Origin: the human T2T-CHM13v2.0 reference genome, Homo sapiens
Length of the DNA: 64,000 bases
Assembly (NCBI RefSeq): GCF_009914755.1
Contig: NC_060930.1
Strand: one strand, 5' to 3'
Both the position numbers and the translations under genes were made by a program. This document shows, piece after piece, positions 1 to 47,049 of the stretch; positions within the stretch are counted from its first letter, which is position 1; every line of letters begins with the position of its first letter. Below the pieces are notes generated by a model. It had not been told where the DNA came from. It searched no databases and saw only the letters and a program-made list of their open reading frames with translations.

Positions 1-86
1 TTCCTCAAGGTATTGATGCTGCGGGGCTCTCCAGTGGATGTCCTATAGTCTATTTCTCTGGAACCACCAAAGACAGGGATTCTTAA

Positions 87-433
<347 letters not shown>

Positions 434-444
434 TAATGATACTA

Positions 445-845
<401 letters not shown>

Positions 846-1001
846 TTTTTTTTAAGTTATTTGCCTCTTTTACTCACATACTCTCACATGTGTGCATTGG
901 AGTTTTCCAGATGTTGAAGACATGATGACATCATCCCTCTGACACCTATTGGAATGTATGTCACAATGTGTATTATTGTGTTTAAAATGCTGTGTTTTAA
1001 G

Positions 1002-1292
1002 GGCCGGGCATGGTGGCTCACACCTGTAATCCCAGCACTCAGGGAGGCCGAGGCAAGCCGATCACTTGAGCCCAGGAGTCAGACCTGGCCAACATGGTGA
1101 AACCTTGTCTCTATGAAAAATAAAAAAATTAGCCAGACATGGTGGTGCATGCCTGTAATCCCAGCTACTAGGAAACTGAGGCAGGAGAATCACTTGAATT
1201 TGGGAGGCGGAGGTTGCAGTGAGCCAAGATTGTACCACTACACTCCAGCCAGGGCAACAGAGCGAGACTCTCATTTAAAAAAAAAAAAAAAA
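1002..1292 (+). mobile_element. Alu
   Basis: Alu consensus with A tail. Confidence 0.9.
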
Positions 1293-1296
1293 CCTG

Positions 1297-1608
<312 letters not shown>

Positions 1609-1925
1609 TAAATGCTAAGTGTTGATAGATATAACTCACATAAATAAAAACTCTCTGGGATTCTCAATTATTTTCAAGAGTATAAGAAGGTCATGAGACC
1701 AAAACATCTGAGAATTGCTGCTCTAAGATAACCAAATCTACCCTGGGAGGAAAAGGCTGAGGTTTTAAAGCACAAGTTATTTTCAAATTATATTTTTAGA
1801 CATTAAACACGTGTGCATGCACGCACACACACACGTAGAGAAGTCAGTGAGAATGGTTAAGTGAGGACTTCTGAAAATCCCTCCCTCCATAAAAGCAGTA
1901 AACACTGGCAAAGATTGGCAGAAAA

Positions 1926-2222
<297 letters not shown>

Positions 2223-4693
2223 TTGCCAGAATCAACTTTCTCAGAACTCTGTAAATTAACCTAAGGCTTGCAGCAATCAGAGTGAATTTTATTCAAGAAA
2301 AATGGCTGAACCTCAGTAAGAACAGTACGTTTTATAGGCATTTTAACATGTCCTATTACACTACCACCACCCCACCACAGCTCTGCAGTAGCCTAGAAAC
2401 CACCCCACAATCACAGTGAAAAACAGCGCCTGACAGTCACTGGAGGGAATAGAAAGGGGTTGGGGCTCCTTCAAAACCCCATTCCTAGAGAATTGTCATT
2501 ACTAGACCTGCCTGGTTGTTCCTTGTGTAGGGGAGGGAAAAATCTGCTTCTCTTTACCCCTCTAGGTTATTTGGCTAGGCTATTAATTAAATTTATCTAA
2601 AACAGATTAATAGGAGAAAAACCATTTTAATTACATGCATATGTACAGGAGTCCCTCAAATCTCAAAATATGAGACTCAAAGAAGGGCCGGATGATTGAA
2701 GTTAATATAGCATCCTGAGCTACAGAAAGGAGGAAGTCAGGGCTTCTGGGAAACGATGGAGACAAATTATGGGATGGTGAGAGAAGAAAATGTATGGTGA
2801 GTAAAGGTTACCTTGTTACAGATAAAAGTTCCCCAAGTGGTAAAACTTGTCTCAAAGCAGTTCTCTTCCTGGTATAAATACCTCTACTAGTAAAAATTTC
2901 TTTTATAGATGTAAATTTTTCTTTACAAAAGGGGTGTTTTATAATTCATTTCAGACAGTTGAGGGGAAGGCAAGGAGATTTTTCTATGTTGGCTGGTCTT
3001 TAATTTCTTTTAGCTCAAAAAGATCAGTATGCCAGGGTGGCATATTTTGAGATGGCATATTCTGGTCTCCTGCACTCATATTTTTGGATGGTGTGTCCTG
3101 AAACTCAGCACCCAGAAGACGTCACTTGCAAGCTTTGTCCTTATTTGATCTGACGCAAAGCTCACCAAGTGTGAACAGGGTTTTCTCTGGGAGCATTTGT
3201 TGACAATAACCAGTGACAATTGTTTAACATCACAGCTGTCTGAGATGGTGGGTAATCATTGGAGCAAACAATAACTAAAAAGCTTAATAGGAAAGGCTGA
3301 GGAGTGAAATATATACAGAGGGCTTTGAAAATCTCTGACGTATTTCTTGGATTCTAGAAGTCCACACATATACATAGGGTTGTGCACATGCCCAGGGCTG
3401 TGTGTGTGCTCTGGAAAGACCTGAGAAGGCCCTAAGTTCTCACTCTAGCTGATCTTGAGGCTCTGTGTGGCCTCATCCTTCACAGGATGGGGACCCACTG
3501 CCACCACCACCAAATTCCTGGTCTCAGAGTCATGTAGAGAGGGCCTGGCCATCTTGACTACCACAGCACAGCACACTCTACCCCATGCCTGGTGGTAAAT
3601 GAGCTCTTCCCTCTGGTCACATAAAAGGACCTCTTCCAGTTGCCCCATTGACACCCATTTTAGGCCCCAAACCCACCTCTCTTCCCGATTAAACTGTTGC
3701 CTTAGTAGCTCATTAGCTTATAACCATAGGGCGAAGTCCCGTCTCAGGGAAACTATTGCTGCCACAGGGTTGTCAACCAAGGAGAAAAGTGTGAGAAAAT
3801 GACATGTTGTAAACCACTTGCTTTAACATCAGGGTGGCACATTCAACCTAATGCTTGATTGACACTGTACGCTTGGACTTACAGTCCTCTCTCTATATAT
3901 ATGGGGGGGGGGTGGGGGGAGAGAGAGAGAGACAGAGAGAGAACTACGGGGCCTCCTAAGGAGAAGAGGAAACCACAAATGAAGGTCAGAGACAGAAGTG
4001 GATAGAAAGCTGGGAGAGGGAAACAGCTGTGAGCCTGATTAAATCCCACCATGACAGCTATGAGGCCCAGGAGTTGACAGCCCATTTCCACCCAACCTCA
4101 AAGATTTCCAGTCCACGCTGGAAATCTCCAGGCCTAGAACTGGGATGAAGGAATATTGTACTCTAAGTTTCCAGGAGAACAAACTCATGATAAGCTGACT
4201 TGGTTCAGGTGATCCTAGAATAACTAAGGCTGTAGGCATGGTTACCCATGACCTGAGTTTGAGCTTACTGGCAAGCAAGTAAGTAGTGAACCCGGGCTAT
4301 CATTAGGTTCATCCTCAGTAGCTGGAGGGGACTAAAAGTGAGCCGGGCATCTAAAGTGATGGCTTCAAGGGTAGTGTTTTGGATTCAAACCAATTCAATA
4401 ATGCATTTTTGTAATAATGACCTGGAAAAAAAATGTTTTAAAAAAATAAACTTATCAATGTTGGTCAAAACCATCATTAATGCAGTAGTCAGATCTGGAA
4501 ATATTTAATAGGAAAGTATAAAAACCGGTCTTTTATGGCTGCAGCTCTAGAGGAGTTGTATGCTTTTTTCATTTATTTCTGGTATTGCTGATACTCTTTG
4601 AACAGTTTTGTTTAAAGAAAGGGTACAACACTAAGTTTCAGGAAGAGAGAAATTCAGCCGTGGTCTCGCTGGTTGTATTTTTAAAAAGTCATT

Positions 4694-5063
4694 TTATTAG
4701 ACCATTTTCACATTGCTATAAAGAACTATTTGAGACTGGGTAATTTATAAATAAAAGAGATTTAATTGACTCACAGTTCTGCATGGCTGTGAGGCCTCGG
4801 GAAACTTACAGTTGTGGCAAAAGGTGAAGGAAAAGCAAGCACCTTCTTCACAAGGCAGCAGGAGAGAGAGAGGGAGGGGTGAGAGGGAAAGTGTCACACT
4901 TTTAAACCATCAGATCTCGTAAGAACTCATTCACTATCACGAGAACAGCATGGTGGAAACTGCCCCCATGATCCAATCACCTCCCGTCACGTCCCTTCTT
5001 CAACACATGGGGATTAAAATTAAAGATGAGATTTGAGTGGGGACACAGATCCAAACCATATCA
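4694..5063 (-). mobile_element. MaLR LTR (MST/THE1-type)
   Basis: GAGACTGGGTAATTTATAAA...CCCCCATGATCCAATCACCTCCC...CCAAACCATATCA. Confidence 0.85.
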
Positions 5064-5216
5064 GTCTTATCTTCATGGTGTCTCTGTTTCTTCATCTGTA
5101 CAAAGAGAGTTAAACCTGAGGACTTTTTAAAATGAATTTGTGTGTGCATGTGTGTTTAAGTTATAGAATGTTTCTATTCACTCTTTTAGAGTTCTCATGA
5201 CAACCCTGTGAGACAG

Positions 5217-5445
<229 letters not shown>

Positions 5446-39149: not shown

Positions 39150-40800
39150 TTCAGTTGAGAGCAGAGCGCCATCGCCGTCTTCCGCCTTAGTCACTCGGCC
39201 CTGGGCTGGCTCACGCCCGCCCCGCCCCCTCCCCGCCCCTCCCACGCCCGCCCCGCCCCTCCCACGCCCCCGCCCCCGTCCCGCTCCCCCTACCCCGACC
39301 CGCCCTCCCTCGCCCGCCGCCCCACCCGCCGCAGCCCTCCCCGCGCAGCCTGGGAGTGACTCGGCGTTCACTCGGGAGACGCCGCTCTGTGGCCCGGACA
39401 ACCGGTCCTATGCAGCGCCGTCCGAGGCAGTTCGCGGAGAGGCGGCTTACCTTTTAACCCAGGAATGCCCATATCTTGAGAAAAAGAACAACAAGGGGGT
39501 GGGCGGGGGTGGGGACATGGGGTAGGGGGGCGGCTGGTGGATGGGGAACTAATAGCGTTTAGACAAGAGACAGAAGTGAGTCCTGAGCACAATGTAGCAT
39601 AAGCGCGTCAGGATGGCCGAGCGGTCTAAGGCGCTGCGTTCAGGTCGCAGTCTCCCCTGGAGGCGTGGGTTCGAATCCCACTCCTGACAGCTCGTACTTT
39701 TAGTATTTAGACACAAATCGAGTTTAAGTTTACGCTACGTTTTCCTACCTGCTCTTTGTGACATGGTCTTCTCTCTTTTTAAAAAATAAATTTTCCGAGT
39801 TCCGGAATAAAAGCACTCTTTGTTTTTATTAGCCACTCCAAGGACAGCAAAAAGTACTCTGTACTCCGAAAATAATTTCAGAACCTACCGGTGTTTTGAA
39901 ATCTCACCTCCTTTTTCCGTTTCTCCTCTGTCTCTAGTTGTCTTTCCCTCTCCCTCCTTCACAGGCAGAGTTGAATAAATGTTACTCTTCAGTTCATGGC
40001 TCATTACATTACTGCAGGGCTCCTCTTTATTTAGTTATAGTTATCTTTTTAATTCCATTTCTTCAGTCTCATTCCCCACCTCATCCTTACTCCCCGTAAG
40101 AAATCACTGCAAGAGTTCCGGTCTGGCAGAGAGCGCGGAGAGACGCAGAGCGCGGGCCGCTCCTCCAGGGCGCTCCAGGCCCTCCGGCCCCGGGTCGGCG
40201 GGTGAGCTAGGGGGCGCCCCGGGACAGGCCGCGCCCTCTGCCCTGCAGATACCGGAGGCCTCTGCTGTGGCTGCCCACTGGCTGGGCCCAGGCCTTGAAG
40301 CGGTGGCGAACGTCTCTTCCCTACCCTACCTCGGTGACTGATGGCGGCGGCGGCCTCTCCCAGTCCGGACCCTGCCGGCCGTCGGGTCTCCCGGCCCAAG
40401 CCTGCCGGGCCTGGACGAAACCCCCGCCGAGCAGCCTGGACGCAGCGCCTTTGGGTGGCGGCGGGAGTAGCGTGCCGGGAAGCATGGCGGCCGCTCGAAC
40501 GCCGCGCGGCGGAGGGCGTTAGGGCATGGAGGGCCCGGGAAGGCGGCCTAGGGACGCAGGCAGGCTCGGCCGCCTCTTCAGGCCACGGAGCCGCCAGATC
40601 TGGGTCCCGGGTGACCACTCTGTCGCCATTGGGCGAGACCTACCTAGTCCTAACGACAACGGACAAAGGCCTTAACGGGCCTGGGAGGTGAGCGAAGTCC
40701 CGAACGACGACGGGTGGAACGGTTAGCGGCGATCGGGCGGTTGGTCTCCGTACTACCAGACCTTGCTGTCGGAAGAGACAAATGGTAGAATGACAGGCCA
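39150..40800. promoter_or_regulatory. CpG island around tRNA-Leu and the HCG11 5' end, with GC-box (CCGCCC) cluster at 39214-39345
   Basis: Dense CpG; repeated CCCGCCCC Sp/KLF motifs. Confidence 0.8.
39607..39689 (+). tRNA. TRL-CAG1-7: tRNA-Leu(CAG), 83 nt with long variable arm
   Basis: GTCAGGATGGCCGAGCGGTCTAAGGCGCTGCGTTCAGGTCGCAG...GGTTCGAATCCCACTCCTGACA; A/B boxes; TTTT at 39698-39701; locus number from recall. Confidence 0.97.
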
Positions 40801-44990: not shown

Positions 44991-47049
44991 ACTAGAGCTA
45001 GTGAATTAGCCAATTTGTAAATACCTTTTTATAAGTGATAGAAAAGATGCATCTTGGACATGGAATTGTTAAACCGCCTCTGAGCAGTATATGTCAGGAC
45101 TTGTTCATTAGGTTGGCAGCAGAGGGGCAGAAGGAAGTATACAGGGAGAGATGTATGCAGATGTGTCCATATGTGTCCATATTTACATTTTGATGATAGC
45201 CATTGATGTATGCATCTCTTTTGGCTGTACTATAGGAATACATTAAGTAATTCAATGGAAATATACCTTGCTAATATTATAATGGTATAGCTCTGTTAAT
45301 GAATTCTCTTAGAAACATTATACTTAATGTATTCTGTTGCTGTATGTTTCATTTTAATTGAGCATTAAGGGAATGCAGCATTTAAATCAGAACTCTGCCA
45401 ATGCTTTTATCTAGAGGCGTGTTGTCATTTTTGTCTTCTATGAAATTTTTGTCCCAAGAAAGGTAGGACTACATTTTTTTTTAACAGATTAAGTTGGTGT
45501 AGTGTATTCTTGTTTATCAAAATACTAATAAAGCTTTGGGATTTTGAATTGGTAAATATTCATGATGTGTCAAAAATCATGATACATACTGTACAATCTC
45601 AGTCCCATAAGATGGGATGTTGTGCCTACACACACACAGGACCTAGAAGAACATGTCAAACTGTAAACTGCTTGTGATTGTGAATGACTTTGTTGTTTGC
45701 TTCTTGTGATTTTCAGTTTCCTATAATGCACATATTAACATATTAACTTTTTAAAATAAAGGTTATTTTAAAAGCCTGTTTAAAAAAAAAAATCACTGGA
45801 AAAGGCATCCTTTTCTTTCTATATGCTTTTATAGAACAGGTACGATTGGTTTGGGTGAATGTGTTTTTATTTTATGTAAGTGGTACTGCGTCATAGATCT
45901 CTTTCTTATTCCATTGGTACCGCAGTTTTGAGCTATGTTGCTGTGTGCACATCTAAACCAACTATTTTCATTGCCACATAGAGGTCTGCAATGTGAAGTC
46001 ACCTACTCTTCCACTTTGCCACTACAAATAAGGGTTCCATCAATGAACATCTTCCTATATTTCAATTATGAGGCTGTGTAAGATTTTCCTTGAGATACAG
46101 CAGGAACACATTGCACGTCATGAGATCTGACAATCTACTAATTTTGCAGTTCAGAACAGGACCTAGGACCCAGGGAGCATGATGTATACACACAGAAGTT
46201 CATGTTTAATGACATCTCCAGAAATATTCCTCAAATTGAAGTTTCCTAATGTCTAGCCTGATCATCCTGAGCATTAATAGCTACTGTTAGAAACATGAAT
46301 AGGCAATGTTTCTATTTTGAGCTCATAATTTACTGCAAAGCCTCAATCAAAAACCTCAGATGACTGGAATTTTCTCTTCATTATTCCTTTTTAAAAAAGA
46401 AATTCAATCTAATTACTGAGTTACCAAAGCAGAATATAGAGTGAATCTGTTTTATGATCATTGATATTCAAAATTTTTCTGCCCTCTTTCTCTCCTAAAA
46501 CACTCAAACTTCACAAAAAGATTCAAGCATGCACTAAAAGAAAAATGAATTGATATGTGTTAGAAATATCATCATCAGCAAGGCTAGAAAAGAACAAAGG
46601 TCCCCCTTATTGCCCAAGTATTCACTCCACATATTCACTCCATTTCTGCCTACCCTGACATTCTGATCAAACGTGGCTTTGAATCCCTCCTTCAGAGGTG
46701 GCAACATAAGAGAAAGGAGGAAATGGCAAATAGGTGTACCCCCTAGGGTAGCAGAAAAAACACTTAAAGGTGCTTGGAAGGCCAGCAGATTAGTCGAATT
46801 CAATTCAGGCTGCCTAGGCCCATCTCTGGACGTTGCCACTTGCCAGCTACTTACCTTCCAGGAAAGTGACTTTGCATCCTTGTGCCTCAGTGCCCTTCTC
46901 TTTAAAATGGAGGAAATAACTGTACCTTTCCTCATAACTATGCAGTAAGGATTACATGACTTGGAATATGTAAAAAGCTTAGAAGAGTGTCTGGCAAACA
47001 ACAAATGCCTGATACATTGTATTTTTTTTTTCATAGTTGAGTACCTGCT

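What the first reader, a model, noticed from the sequence alone, without database searches (positions are those of the whole stretch)
40114..45792. HCG11 is a full-length NORAD retrocopy still carrying 16 perfect Pumilio response elements: a possible second PUM1/2 decoy
Seen: canonical TGTANATA on the sense strand at 40867, 41343, 41542, 41551, 41828, 41936, 42149, 42158, 42562, 42735, 42746, 43072, 43372, 43658, 43688 and 45016 (manual count), several as close tandem pairs, plus one-mismatch near-PREs at 40995, 41240, 41657, 41901 and 42469. Established: NORAD is a ~5.3 kb cytoplasmic lncRNA that sequesters PUM1/PUM2 through multiple PREs, nucleates PUM condensates and protects genome stability; NORAD pseudogenes exist and, as I recall, HCG11 has been named among them, so the homology itself is not new. 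Inference: with valency comparable to the parent, an intact poly(A) signal and a CpG-island context, this copy may be a functional paralogue or partial back-up of NORAD, and phenotypes assigned to HCG11 as a generic miRNA sponge may run through PUM or reflect cross-reacting reagents.
Basis: partly seen in the sequence, partly recalled or inferred. Interest (0 to 1): 0.88.

Follow-up and report, generated by a model that had tools for sequence, protein, structure and literature searches.

The report
HCG11: expressed NORAD retrocopy, known
HCG11 is a complete processed copy of the NORAD RNA gene that still carries its Pumilio-binding sites, which was already published, and it is probably too scarce to act as a real second decoy.

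Summary
All 16 sense-strand TGTANATA sites are at the stated positions, against 0.66 expected locally and 1 on the antisense strand. Window 40114-45783 aligns end to end with NORAD (chr20, 5343 nt). It has a target-site duplication, an A-tail and an intact AATAAA.

It is already in print. PMC4947167 calls HCG11 the one expressed NORAD pseudogene, about 20-fold below NORAD. PMC5758885 gives 19 versus 17 relaxed PREs (reproduced), about 1.3-fold stabilisation on PUM depletion, and less than 1% of cellular PREs. PMC7976429 gives 16 versus 15 PREs and proposes decoy action.

New here:
- HCG11 kept 16 of 18 inferred ancestral PREs against 12.6 expected (P=0.06, not significant). NORAD itself kept 15 of 18, so the test lacks power.
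- A chr12 sibling also has 16 PREs.
- Some published HCG11 reagents match NORAD: one qPCR pair and two shRNAs.
- HCG11's CpG island is NORAD's own transcribed 5' end. Across the genome this segment carries 13 annotated gene starts in 11 of 29 copies, against 0.32 expected. This likely explains why HCG11 is transcribed.

Verdict: real, ordinary and already known. A back-up decoy role is untested and stoichiometrically unlikely.

The parts
39607..39689 (+). tRNA-Leu(CAG) gene about 420 bp upstream of the insertion. This is context, not part of the retrocopy.
   Evidence: RefSeq row supplied with the finding; Rfam tRNA match at 57.1 bits.
40101..40109 (+). 5' copy of the target-site duplication, AAATCACTG.
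   Evidence: Read from the sequence and the junction print-out. The same 9-mer follows the A-tail.
40110..40113 (+). Four extra bases (CAAG) between the duplication and NORAD position +1. The RefSeq HCG11 start (40105) lies just upstream, inside the duplication.
   Evidence: The chr12, chrX and chr5 siblings start exactly at NORAD +1 without such bases.
40114..45783 (+). NORAD-derived body, colinear with NORAD 1-5343.
   Evidence: 4897 matches, 362 mismatches, 420 bases inserted, 84 deleted.
40114..40906 (+). CpG island inherited from NORAD's transcribed 5' 800 nt: 77 CpGs, o/e 0.86, GC 0.67.
   Evidence: 58 of 73 parental CpGs are kept here, against 20 of 40 in the body.
40867..40874 (+). PRE TGTATATA, equivalent to NORAD 761.
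41240..41247 (+). Lost PRE, now TGTATGTA. NORAD 1140 is TGTATATA.
41343..41350 (+). PRE TGTAAATA, equivalent to NORAD 1241.
41542..41558 (+). Tandem PRE pair, TGTATATA and TGTACATA, equivalent to NORAD 1442 and 1451.
41828..41835 (+). PRE TGTACATA followed by a 4-nt CATA slip. NORAD 1721 now reads TATACATA, so this is an ancestral site kept here and lost in NORAD.
   Evidence: chrX also has TGTACATA; chr9 has TGTACAAA.
41936..41943 (+). PRE TGTAAATA, equivalent to NORAD 1825.
42149..42165 (+). Tandem PRE pair, equivalent to NORAD 2039 and 2048. NORAD has lost the second (TATATATA).
   Evidence: chr9, chrX and chr12 keep the second PRE.
42562..42569 (+). PRE TGTAAATA, equivalent to NORAD 2466.
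42735..42753 (+). PRE pair, equivalent to NORAD 2639 and 2650. In NORAD the second PRE has shifted 2 nt, to 2648.
43072..43079 (+). PRE TGTATATA, equivalent to NORAD 2972.
43372..43379 (+). PRE TGTATATA, equivalent to NORAD 3284. Its tandem partner (NORAD 3275) is deleted in HCG11.
43658..43665 (+). PRE TGTATATA where NORAD 3563 reads TGTATGTA. Most simply an ancestral PRE lost on the NORAD lineage, because the older chr9 copy shares the A at motif position 6.
   Evidence: A private gain in HCG11 is the alternative.
43688..43695 (+). PRE TGTATATA, equivalent to NORAD 3593.
43755..44057 (+). Alu inherited through the NORAD RNA (NORAD about 3662-3950). It is absent from older retrocopies such as chr9:116.17M.
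   Evidence: contiguous alignment across it; chr9 jumps from 3661 to 3948. Masked repeat 43839-44066.
44682..45003 (+). HCG11-specific Alu (44699-44986), inserted after retroposition and flanked by its own duplication AAAAACTAGAGCTAGTG (44682-44698 and 44987-45003).
   Evidence: Sequence. NORAD 4570-4586 is aligned twice. Masked repeat 44694-45000.
45016..45023 (+). PRE TGTAAATA, equivalent to NORAD 4599.
45755..45760 (+). Poly(A) signal AATAAA, homologous to NORAD's.
45784..45792 (+). Remnant A-tail.
45790..45798 (+). 3' copy of the target-site duplication, AAATCACTG. Its A's overlap the tail.
39903..39910 (-). Consensus 5' splice site (AG|GTGAGA on the minus strand) used by the antisense model LOC107986583, whose first exon is drawn across all of HCG11.
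   Evidence: Sequence; Gnomon model XR_007076650.1.

Best explanation
HCG11 is an L1-type processed retrocopy of the full-length NORAD transcript. It inserted between a tRNA-Leu gene and the HMGN4 side of the chr6p22 tRNA cluster, after NORAD had acquired its internal Alu and before the chrX, chr12 and chr5 copies were made. It is transcribed because the NORAD RNA carries, in its first ~800 nt, the downstream part of the parental CpG island. CpG-dense DNA of this kind tends to stay unmethylated and promoter-like wherever it lands. In HCG11 it has remained a full-strength CpG island. The resulting polyadenylated RNA keeps nearly the whole ancestral PRE array, so PUM1 and PUM2 bind it and modestly destabilise it (published). 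By mass action it adds a small extra pool of PUM sites, about 5% of NORAD's at the published 20-fold expression difference. It is therefore a minor passenger of the NORAD-PUM axis with its own transcriptional control, not a significant second decoy in most cells. Shown: homology, anatomy, PRE map, CpG preservation, order of copies. Taken from papers: expression ratio, PUM sensitivity. Inferred: the self-carried promoter and the small functional weight.
For: Retrocopy: colinear alignment to NORAD 1-5343; target-site duplication, A-tail and unrelated flanks. Order of events: comb-shaped tree with support 99-100 at all 4 internal nodes, HCG11 branch 0.039, NORAD trunk over the same interval 0.029; NORAD's Alu is present in HCG11 and absent from chr9. 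CpG island: 77 CpGs, o/e 0.86. 58 of 73 parental CpGs are kept in the 5' part with only 5 TG/CA changes, against 20 of 40 kept in the body with 16 TG/CA changes. Generality of the promoter effect: 13 annotated gene starts in 11 of 33 NORAD-5' segments (29 places) against 0.32 expected. With HCG11 and the parent excluded, 8 starts in 9.3 kb of 5'-derived DNA against 1 in 60.6 kb of body-derived DNA, P=7.7e-7. The spliced curated first exon of SCAND3 lies wholly inside such a segment. Copies with a gene start have median CpG o/e 0.70 (n=11) against 0.27 (n=17), P=0.002. Precedent: about 3% of expressed retrocopies inherit a parental promoter (PMC4772013, passages). PUM link and low abundance: PMC4947167 and PMC5758885, passages only.
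Against: HCG11 kept 16 of 18 ancestral PREs where 12.6 are expected, a trend toward constraint (P=0.06). Its branch is somewhat short relative to the trunk when compared with the chr12 and chr5 copies. Its expression differs from NORAD's in breast cancer subtypes (PMC7976429), so it could matter where NORAD is low. The annotated HCG11 start (40105) lies 9 nt upstream of the parental sequence, so the core promoter is formally flanking DNA. I have no CAGE, methylation or chromatin data. RefSeq marks 40041-40560 as a 'silent region' element. PMC5758885 says both genes appear to use LTR-derived promoters. I saw no masked repeat of 100 bases or more between 38361 and 43839, but repeat families are not named in my data. 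Gene-start enrichment rests on annotation, and only chr6 transcripts could be inspected.
Confidence: 0.75

Rival explanations
1. HCG11 is a selectively maintained second PUM1/PUM2 decoy. It would be a differently regulated paralogue that buffers PUM activity in tissues or states where NORAD is low, with its PRE array under purifying selection.
For: 16 of 18 ancestral PREs kept against 12.6 expected. Silent siblings track their neutral expectation: chrX 12 of 15 against 0.80, chr9 9 of 15 against 0.635, chr7 4 of 8 against 0.625. The CpG island is kept at full strength for the copy's whole life. Full length and poly(A) signal are intact. [quoted passage not shown] PUM depletion stabilises HCG11 about 1.3-fold (PMC5758885).
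Against: P is 0.06-0.12, not significant. The same test fails for NORAD itself (13 of 15 against 0.873; 15 of 18), so it cannot discriminate. The chr12 copy also has 16 PREs and kept 15 of 16. Expression is about 20-fold lower than NORAD (PMC4947167), and each RNA is under 1% of PREs in HEK293 (PMC5758885). From recall, not from a call: NORAD knockout in human cells gives a phenotype although HCG11 is still present.
Confidence: 0.13
2. The locus matters mainly as DNA. The inherited CpG island would act as a bidirectional promoter or regulatory element in the tRNA/histone/butyrophilin neighbourhood, for example driving the antisense LOC107986583, and the HCG11 RNA and its PREs would be incidental.
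For: An antisense Gnomon model uses a consensus splice donor at 39908. Other NORAD-5' copies carry antisense or divergent starts: LINC02211, OR2W1-AS1 and KRT18P55 at NORAD positions 66, 567 and 571. The chr6:29.03M copy overlaps annotated enhancer elements. The CpG island is the best-preserved feature of HCG11.
Against: There are no functional data. The antisense model is computational and its 5.9-kb first exon may come from sense HCG11 reads. This reading does not explain why the body and poly(A) site stay intact, though at this age neutral survival is plausible.
Confidence: 0.08
3. HCG11 acts as a specific microRNA sponge (miR-26b-5p, miR-579, miR-214-5p and others), as in the cancer literature.
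For: Many papers report this. The 2026 review PMC13373682 summarises them (passages).
Against: The single miR-26b-5p 7-mer site is shared with NORAD at the homologous position, and NORAD is about 20-fold more abundant (PMC4947167). Both shRNA targets printed in PMC9981294 hit NORAD with 0 and 1 mismatch, and the primer pair of PMC8157335 and PMC7781107 differs from NORAD by one base in total. In the review, 'NORAD' occurs once, in the reference list only, and 'PUM' never. Only one miRNA and reagents from five papers were checked.
Confidence: 0.04

Closest known systems
NORAD (LINC00657), chr20, the parent gene
   Same: Colinear over all 5343 nt. Same repeat-unit region, same poly(A) signal and same internal Alu. 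12 of NORAD's 15 strict PREs are at identical positions and a 13th is displaced by 2 nt. Relaxed-motif counts of 19 and 17 match PMC5758885.
   Different: About 7% substitutions in aligned columns, one extra Alu, and no parental upstream promoter. HCG11 keeps three PREs that NORAD has lost (NORAD 1721, 2048, 3563) and lacks two that NORAD keeps (1140, 3275). Reported expression is about 20-fold lower (PMC4947167). Its regulation differs in breast tumours (PMC7976429).
chr12:29.26 Mb NORAD retrocopy, at the annotated start of OVCH1-AS1
   Same: Full length, with target-site duplication and A-tail, 16 strict PREs, CpG o/e 0.82, and an annotated sense gene start at NORAD position 14.
   Different: Younger (branch 0.021 against 0.039). 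Its annotated transcript is a 97-kb gene rather than a mono-exonic copy. PMC4947167 says the other >90% pseudogenes do not appear to be expressed.
Retrocopies that inherit a parental promoter carried in the mRNA (class described in PMC4772013), and the PPP1R26P1 retrocopy whose CpG island CpG85 became an alternative RB1 promoter (PMC4537222, abstract in search listing only)
   Same: A CpG-rich stretch transcribed in the parent arrives with the retrocopy and acts as a promoter at the new site.
   Different: That class is reported as about 3% of expressed retrocopies. Here one parent seems to have done it repeatedly, with gene starts in 11 of 29 places. For HCG11 itself the annotated start is at the edge of the parental sequence rather than inside it.
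Expressed pseudogenes proposed as competing decoys, such as the PTENP1 type (recalled, not from a call)
   Same: A transcribed pseudogene shares the parent's binding sites for a trans-acting repressor.
   Different: Here the parent is itself a decoy and the ligand is a protein (PUM), not microRNAs. The same stoichiometric objection applies.

Membership tests
Processed (L1-mediated) retrocopy of NORAD | Colinear homology to the mature parental transcript from its 5' end to its poly(A) site | tested here: met
   NORAD 1-5343 aligned to window 40114-45783.
Processed (L1-mediated) retrocopy of NORAD | A-tail at the 3' end and flanking target-site duplication | tested here: met
   Nine A's at 45784-45792. 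AAATCACTG at 40101-40109 and 45790-45798.
Processed (L1-mediated) retrocopy of NORAD | Homology stops at the transcript ends, so parental flanks were not copied | tested here: met
   Upstream and downstream flanks of NORAD and HCG11 are unrelated.
Processed (L1-mediated) retrocopy of NORAD | Loss of parental introns | tested here: inconclusive
   NORAD is a single-exon gene (and the RefSeq rows), so this criterion carries no information.
NORAD-like PUM decoy RNA | Many consensus PREs on the transcribed strand | tested here: met
   16 sense against 0.66 expected, 1 antisense.
NORAD-like PUM decoy RNA | Direct PUM1/PUM2 binding in cells, assigned uniquely to this RNA | not testable with these tools
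   PMC5758885 cites published CLIP for both RNAs. PMC4947167 says most of its methods cannot tell the two apart. 96% of HCG11 50-mers differ from NORAD, so unique mapping is feasible.
NORAD-like PUM decoy RNA | Abundance high enough to titrate PUM | not testable with these tools
   Papers indicate it is not met: about 20-fold below NORAD and under 1% of PREs in HEK293. The supplementary tables could not be seen.
NORAD-like PUM decoy RNA | PREs evolving under purifying selection | tested here: inconclusive
   13 of 15 against 0.698, P=0.12. 16 of 18 against 0.70, P=0.06. NORAD itself shows no excess in the same test. No primate genomes were available.
NORAD-like PUM decoy RNA | Loss of the RNA causes PUM hyperactivity or genome instability | not tested
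   No such experiment was found in 4 literature searches on HCG11 with NORAD, Pumilio or PUM1/CLIP or in the 2026 review.
Retrocopy with promoter inherited from the parent | Promoter-like CpG island lying in parent-derived sequence and maintained since insertion | tested here: met
   o/e 0.86, and parental CpGs lost at about the non-CpG rate.
Retrocopy with promoter inherited from the parent | Transcription start driven by the parent-derived sequence | tested here: inconclusive
   The annotated start is at NORAD position -8, at the edge. Sibling copies start inside the segment at 14 and 371-676. No CAGE or reporter data.

The most novel reading that the evidence does not exclude
NORAD is a serial promoter donor. 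Because its RNA carries a self-sufficient CpG-island promoter in its first ~800 nt, at least 10 independent retrocopies became gene starts, including the first exon of SCAND3 and the most upstream annotated start of SRPRB. HCG11 is the one copy in which both this promoter and essentially the whole ancestral PRE array survived. That would give primates a separately regulated PUM-binding paralogue, kept by weak selection, that buffers PUM where NORAD is low.
Probability: 0.12. Interest if true: 0.55.

Novelty: already known. Interest (0 to 1): 0.27.

Why it matters
The finding itself adds nothing to the literature. It does matter practically, because a large HCG11 cancer literature treats the RNA as an independent microRNA sponge without mentioning that it is about 93% identical to the far more abundant NORAD. 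About 22% of HCG11 21-mers are identical in NORAD, and some published shRNAs and one reused primer pair do not distinguish the two. Phenotypes ascribed to HCG11 may therefore partly be NORAD/PUM phenotypes. The side result, that NORAD's transcribed CpG island repeatedly seeded new gene starts, gives a concrete and testable explanation for why this retrocopy is expressed. It is also an unusually clear multi-copy example of promoter inheritance by retroposition.

Tried and rejected
Per-base test of PRE positions. It gave 9 changed of 91 PRE bases in HCG11, but 7 of these come from one deletion and 1 from a mis-gapped 4-nt slip at NORAD 1721. I rejected it as a measure and counted events instead.

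Majority-rule polarisation. It is crude because the copies are nested rather than a star.

Private gain of a PRE at 43658. I first scored this as a gain. I revised it to probable retention because chr9 shares the A at motif position 6. Both versions are reported (P=0.060 and 0.077).

LTR-derived promoter (stated in PMC5758885). No masked repeat of 100 bases or more lies between window 38361 and 43839. I could not name repeat families, so this is not excluded.

Rfam. Only the tRNA matched. There is no curated family for NORAD units.

Relative-rate argument from the tree. The ratio of HCG11 branch to trunk is 1.37, against 1.48, 1.71 and 2.5 for chrX, chr12 and chr5. This is suggestive of slight constraint, but it is confounded by X-linkage, short alignments and a varying trunk rate, so I did not use it as evidence.

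Dating. The HCG11 branch of 0.039 substitutions per site suggests roughly 30-45 million years. The neutral rates used are recalled, not from a call, and no primate genome was available to check presence or absence.

Literature. Searches for a prior report of NORAD retrocopies as promoters gave: NORAD+retrocopy+promoter, 0 papers; OVCH1-AS1+NORAD, 1 paper, a clustering table only; NORAD/pseudogenes/LINC00657/retrotransposition, 25 papers, 12 listed, one opened with nothing relevant. Figure S2 of PMC7976429 and Tables S4/S6 of PMC5758885, which hold the PRE maps and fold changes, were not seen.

Not done: hairpin and U-rich motif retention in the repeat units, SAM68 motifs, and transcript-level checks outside chr6. 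For other chromosomes only gene-level starts were available, so the SRPRB start is the most upstream of any isoform.


Full report
OBSERVATION

The whole window has 30 matches on both strands against 6.36 expected, and 0 of 100 shuffles reach 30. Inside HCG11 the count is 16 sense and 1 antisense. 500 dinucleotide-preserving shuffles of HCG11 give a mean of 0.66 and a maximum of 4. The close pairs are real, with gaps of 9, 9, 11 and 30 nt.

WHAT IT IS

A search of the window's own genome with HCG11 gives chr20:37766598-37771940 (minus strand) as the best non-self match. RefSeq names this NORAD, 5343 nt. BLAST aligns NORAD 1-4586 and 4570-5343 to window 40114-44698 and 44987-45783. A global alignment has 4897 matches, 362 mismatches, 420 inserted and 84 deleted bases, which is 93.1% identity over aligned columns.

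The junctions show:
- a target-site duplication AAATCACTG at 40101-40109 and 45790-45798;
- four extra bases (CAAG), then NORAD position +1 at 40114;
- NORAD's AATAAA at 45755-45760;
- nine A's at 45784-45792;
- flanks unrelated to those of NORAD.

This is a textbook L1-type processed retrocopy of the full-length transcript.

NORAD itself contains an Alu at about 3662-3950. HCG11 inherited it (window about 43755-44057), whereas older copies such as chr9:116.17M lack it. A second Alu (44699-44986) entered HCG11 later and has its own 17-bp duplication.

FAMILY CONTEXT

HCG11 is one of many NORAD retrocopies.
- The chr12:29.26M copy is also full length with a 14-bp duplication.
- The chrX, chr5 and chr7 copies start at NORAD +1 (chr7 at +3). 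They end in A-tails at about 4243, 2593 and 2149, each with a duplication.
- A maximum-likelihood tree of NORAD and six copies (Alu columns removed, rooted on chr9) is a comb. All 4 internal nodes have support of 99-100. The order, oldest first, is chr7/chr9, then HCG11 (branch 0.039), chrX (0.035), chr12 (0.021), chr5 (0.012) and NORAD.
- The NORAD lineage accumulated 0.029 over the time in which HCG11 accumulated 0.039.

With neutral rates that I recall rather than computed, this places the insertion very roughly 30-45 million years ago. No primate genome was available to check.

PRE MAP

NORAD in this assembly has 15 strict PREs. HCG11 has 16, chr12 has 16, chrX has 13 in 4.2 kb, chr9 has 10, chr5 has 7 and chr7 has 4. 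With the relaxed motif TGTANATW the counts are 19 for HCG11 and 17 for NORAD, exactly the published figures (PMC5758885).

Site by site:
- HCG11 shares 12 positions with NORAD.
- A thirteenth is the same site displaced by 2 nt in NORAD (2650 to 2648).
- HCG11 keeps PREs at NORAD 1721, 2048 and 3563, where NORAD now reads TATACATA, TATATATA and TGTATGTA. Sibling copies show that these were ancestral. For 3563 this rests on one shared base with chr9, and a private gain is the alternative.
- HCG11 lost two: NORAD 1140 by an A-to-G change (window 41240), and NORAD 3275 by deletion of one unit of a tandem pair.

So since they separated, the pseudogene kept 16 of 18 and the functional parent kept 15 of 18.

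ARE THE PREs PROTECTED?

Matched control 8-mers (no CpG context, same seven scored positions) survive in HCG11 at 0.698 (n=3974). By majority polarisation 13 of 15 PREs survive, P=0.12. With tree-aware polarisation and the two alignment corrections it is 16 of 18 against 12.6 expected, P=0.060, or 15 of 17, P=0.077, if 3563 is a gain.

The silent siblings sit on their expectations:
- chrX: 12 of 15 against 0.80
- chr12: 15 of 16 against 0.83
- chr9: 9 of 15 against 0.635
- chr7: 4 of 8 against 0.625
- chr5: 7 of 9 against 0.87

The positive control also fails. NORAD itself shows 13 of 15 against 0.873 and 15 of 18. With so few sites and redundant PREs, the test cannot tell function from neutrality. 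A per-base version was discarded because a single deletion counts seven times.

WHY IT IS EXPRESSED

The "CpG-island context" is not flanking DNA. It is NORAD's own transcribed 5' end. NORAD 1-800 has 73 CpGs (o/e 0.84). HCG11's first 793 nt have 77 (o/e 0.86, GC 0.67).
- In this part HCG11 kept 58 of 73 parental CpGs, with only 5 TG/CA changes. That is close to the (1-0.083)^2 = 0.84 expected if CpGs mutate like other sites.
- In the body it kept 20 of 40, with 16 TG/CA changes, which is the signature of germline methylation.

So the island appears to have stayed unmethylated since insertion.

This seems to be a general property of the segment. A genome search with NORAD 1-800 finds 33 non-parent segments in 29 places. 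13 annotated gene starts fall in 11 of them, against 0.32 expected from 58,563 genes in 3.117 Gb (Poisson P about 4e-17). One of the 13 is HCG11 itself.

The internal control used the hits with HCG11 and the parent excluded. 5'-derived DNA has 8 starts in 9.3 kb. Body-derived DNA has 1 in 60.6 kb (P=7.7e-7).

The starts belong to OVCH1-AS1, LINC02228/LINC02211, LINC03094, LINC01815, LINC02583, GCSAML-AS1, LOC105375002/OR2W1-AS1, KRT18P55 (antisense), SCAND3 and SRPRB. For SCAND3, the curated NM_001329616.2 first exon (chr6:28487397-28487574) lies wholly inside the NORAD-derived segment and is spliced to unique exons, so mis-mapped NORAD reads cannot explain it.

Mapped by alignment, sense starts lie at NORAD positions -8, 14, 371, 461, 470, 483, 492, 588, 598 and 676. 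Antisense starts lie at 66, 567 and 571.

The fate of the island is bimodal. Copies with a start have median o/e 0.70 (n=11). Those without have 0.27 (n=17; P=0.002). The difference holds among old copies of 82% identity or less (0.67 against 0.27, P=0.008). The 120-bp chr7:128.18M hit was left out of that table.

Two pairs are post-insertion duplicates: 29.03M/29.04M at 98%, and 28.49M/28.91M at 86% to each other against about 79% to NORAD. That leaves at most 27 independent insertions, 10 of them with starts.

Inheritance of a parental promoter carried in the mRNA is a described but rare route, about 3% of expressed retrocopies (PMC4772013, passages). A retrocopy-borne CpG island acting as an RB1 promoter is a precedent (PMC4537222, abstract in listing). 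I found no report of this for NORAD.

Caveats: this rests on annotation, and transcripts could be inspected only on chr6. HCG11's own annotated start sits 9 nt upstream of the parental sequence. RefSeq lists a "silent region" over 40041-40560. PMC5758885 mentions LTR-derived promoters, for which I saw no masked repeat.

WHAT IS ALREADY KNOWN

I read passages only, and supplements were closed.
- PMC4947167 (2016): four human pseudogenes share more than 90% homology with NORAD over more than 4 kb. HCG11 is the notable expressed one, at about 20-fold lower levels. Most of the authors' methods cannot distinguish the two RNAs. About 70 NORAD copies with 17 PREs give about 1,200 sites per U2OS cell.
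- PMC5758885 (2017): HCG11 has 19 PREs and NORAD 17. Both are stabilised about 1.3-fold on PUM depletion (q=0.040 and 0.033) and are called direct PUM targets. Each is under 1% of PREs in HEK293, so competitive inhibition is not expected there.
- PMC7976429 (2021): 91% identity, "at least 15 and 16 PRE", HCG11 called a paralogue, opposite expression in luminal A and basal-like tumours, and decoy action suggested.
- PMC11723954 calls HCG11 NORAD's pseudogene.

So the homology, the exact PRE count and the decoy idea are all in print. No direct loss-of-function or PRE-mutant test of HCG11 turned up.

At a 20-fold lower level, HCG11 would offer about 5% of NORAD's sites. That is my arithmetic from the published numbers.

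REAGENTS

Of HCG11 k-mers, 25.9% of 19-mers, 22.4% of 21-mers and 4.0% of 50-mers are identical in NORAD. RNA-seq can therefore separate the two RNAs, but short reagents often cannot.

I mapped published oligonucleotides.
- The primer pair used in PMC8157335 and PMC7781107 has 1 and 0 mismatches to NORAD.
- The pairs of PMC9981294, PMC9876628 and PMC7976429 each contain one primer with 4-5 mismatches and are specific.
- The two shRNA targets of PMC9981294 have 1 and 0 mismatches to NORAD. The second matches all six sequences tested.
- The only miR-26b-5p 7-mer site of HCG11 is at the homologous NORAD position.
- In the 2026 review of HCG11 in cancer (PMC13373682), "NORAD" occurs once, in the reference list only, and "PUM" never.

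The sample is small: five papers and one microRNA.

VERDICT

The identification is correct and already known. The functional inference is untested, is disfavoured by published stoichiometry, and is not resolved by the evolutionary test available here.

The most likely account is a low-abundance, PUM-bound passenger RNA, expressed because it brought part of its parent's CpG-island promoter with it. The promoter-donor pattern across NORAD retrocopies and the reagent cross-matches are the useful additions.

Noticed in passing
Genome-wide: 29 places with NORAD 1-800 sequence, e.g. G000 C12:29261806-29262597, C5:25295396-25296177, C9:116173060-116173791, C2:46433801-46434516, C2:81467377-81468007, C3:136529034-136529556, C6:28487376-28487750, C6:28910500-28910997, C1:246967530-246967904, C17:29248717-29249457: NORAD's transcribed 5' CpG island behaves as a portable promoter. 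13 annotated gene starts fall in 11 of these places against 0.32 expected. 5'-derived DNA has 8 starts in 9.3 kb and body-derived DNA has 1 in 60.6 kb. Four independent copies start at NORAD positions 461-492. The first exon of SCAND3 and the most upstream annotated start of SRPRB are included.
   Followed up: partly
L007 (chr7:23342461-23343225), L014 (chrX:79437184-79437965), L024 (chr6:29040241-29040808), L039 (chr6:29034555-29035038), L045 (chr6:27627013-27627424), L022 (chr19:12684063-12684397): NORAD-5' copies that keep a CpG island (o/e 0.64-0.88) but have no annotated gene start. They are candidates for unannotated promoters or enhancers. The chr6:29.03M copy overlaps RefSeq P300/CBP-dependent and H3K4me1 hESC enhancer elements.
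   Followed up: no
window 39908-45797, minus strand: The Gnomon lncRNA LOC107986583 has a 5.9-kb first exon covering all of HCG11 in antisense. It splices from a consensus donor (AG|GTGAGA) at 39908 to exons about 33 kb away. It is more likely an upstream-antisense transcript of the HCG11 CpG island, with the exon over-extended by sense reads.
   Followed up: partly
NORAD (L002, reverse strand) positions 1721, 2048, 2648/2650, 3563: The functional parent has itself lost three ancestral PREs and shifted one by 2 nt since HCG11 split off. It kept 15 of 18 against the pseudogene's 16 of 18. Over this interval individual PREs in NORAD are no better conserved than background 8-mers.
   Followed up: yes
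L014 (chrX), L006 (chr5), L007 (chr7): Three retrocopies that match NORAD from +1 (chr7 from +3) end in A-tails with target-site duplications at NORAD about 4243, 2593 and 2149. They are copies of prematurely polyadenylated or internally primed NORAD RNAs.
   Followed up: partly
chr6:26.39-29.05 Mb (window locus plus L045, L035/L015, L037, L039, L024): Six of 29 places with NORAD-5' sequence lie within 2.7 Mb of chr6p22. Two pairs are post-insertion duplicates (98% and 86% identity). That still leaves about four events in 0.1% of the genome, which is unexplained.
   Followed up: partly
window 39211-39810 and 40041-40560: RefSeq 'silent region' (silencer) elements overlap the tRNA-Leu gene and the HCG11 start and 5' island. 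This sits oddly with an active promoter, and the cell type and assay are unknown to me.
   Followed up: no
PMC9981294, Table 1: The table prints the same hairpin core for the first 'sh-NC' control as for sh-HCG11#1, and likewise for the second sh-NC and sh-ARPP19#1. This is either a typesetting slip or a control problem.
   Followed up: no
window 44184-44205 (HCG11 positions about 4071-4092): A short patch with 4-5 differences from NORAD in about 20 nt, much denser than the 7% average. It is where all three specific published primer pairs anchor, and it is useful for paralogue-specific assays.
   Followed up: no
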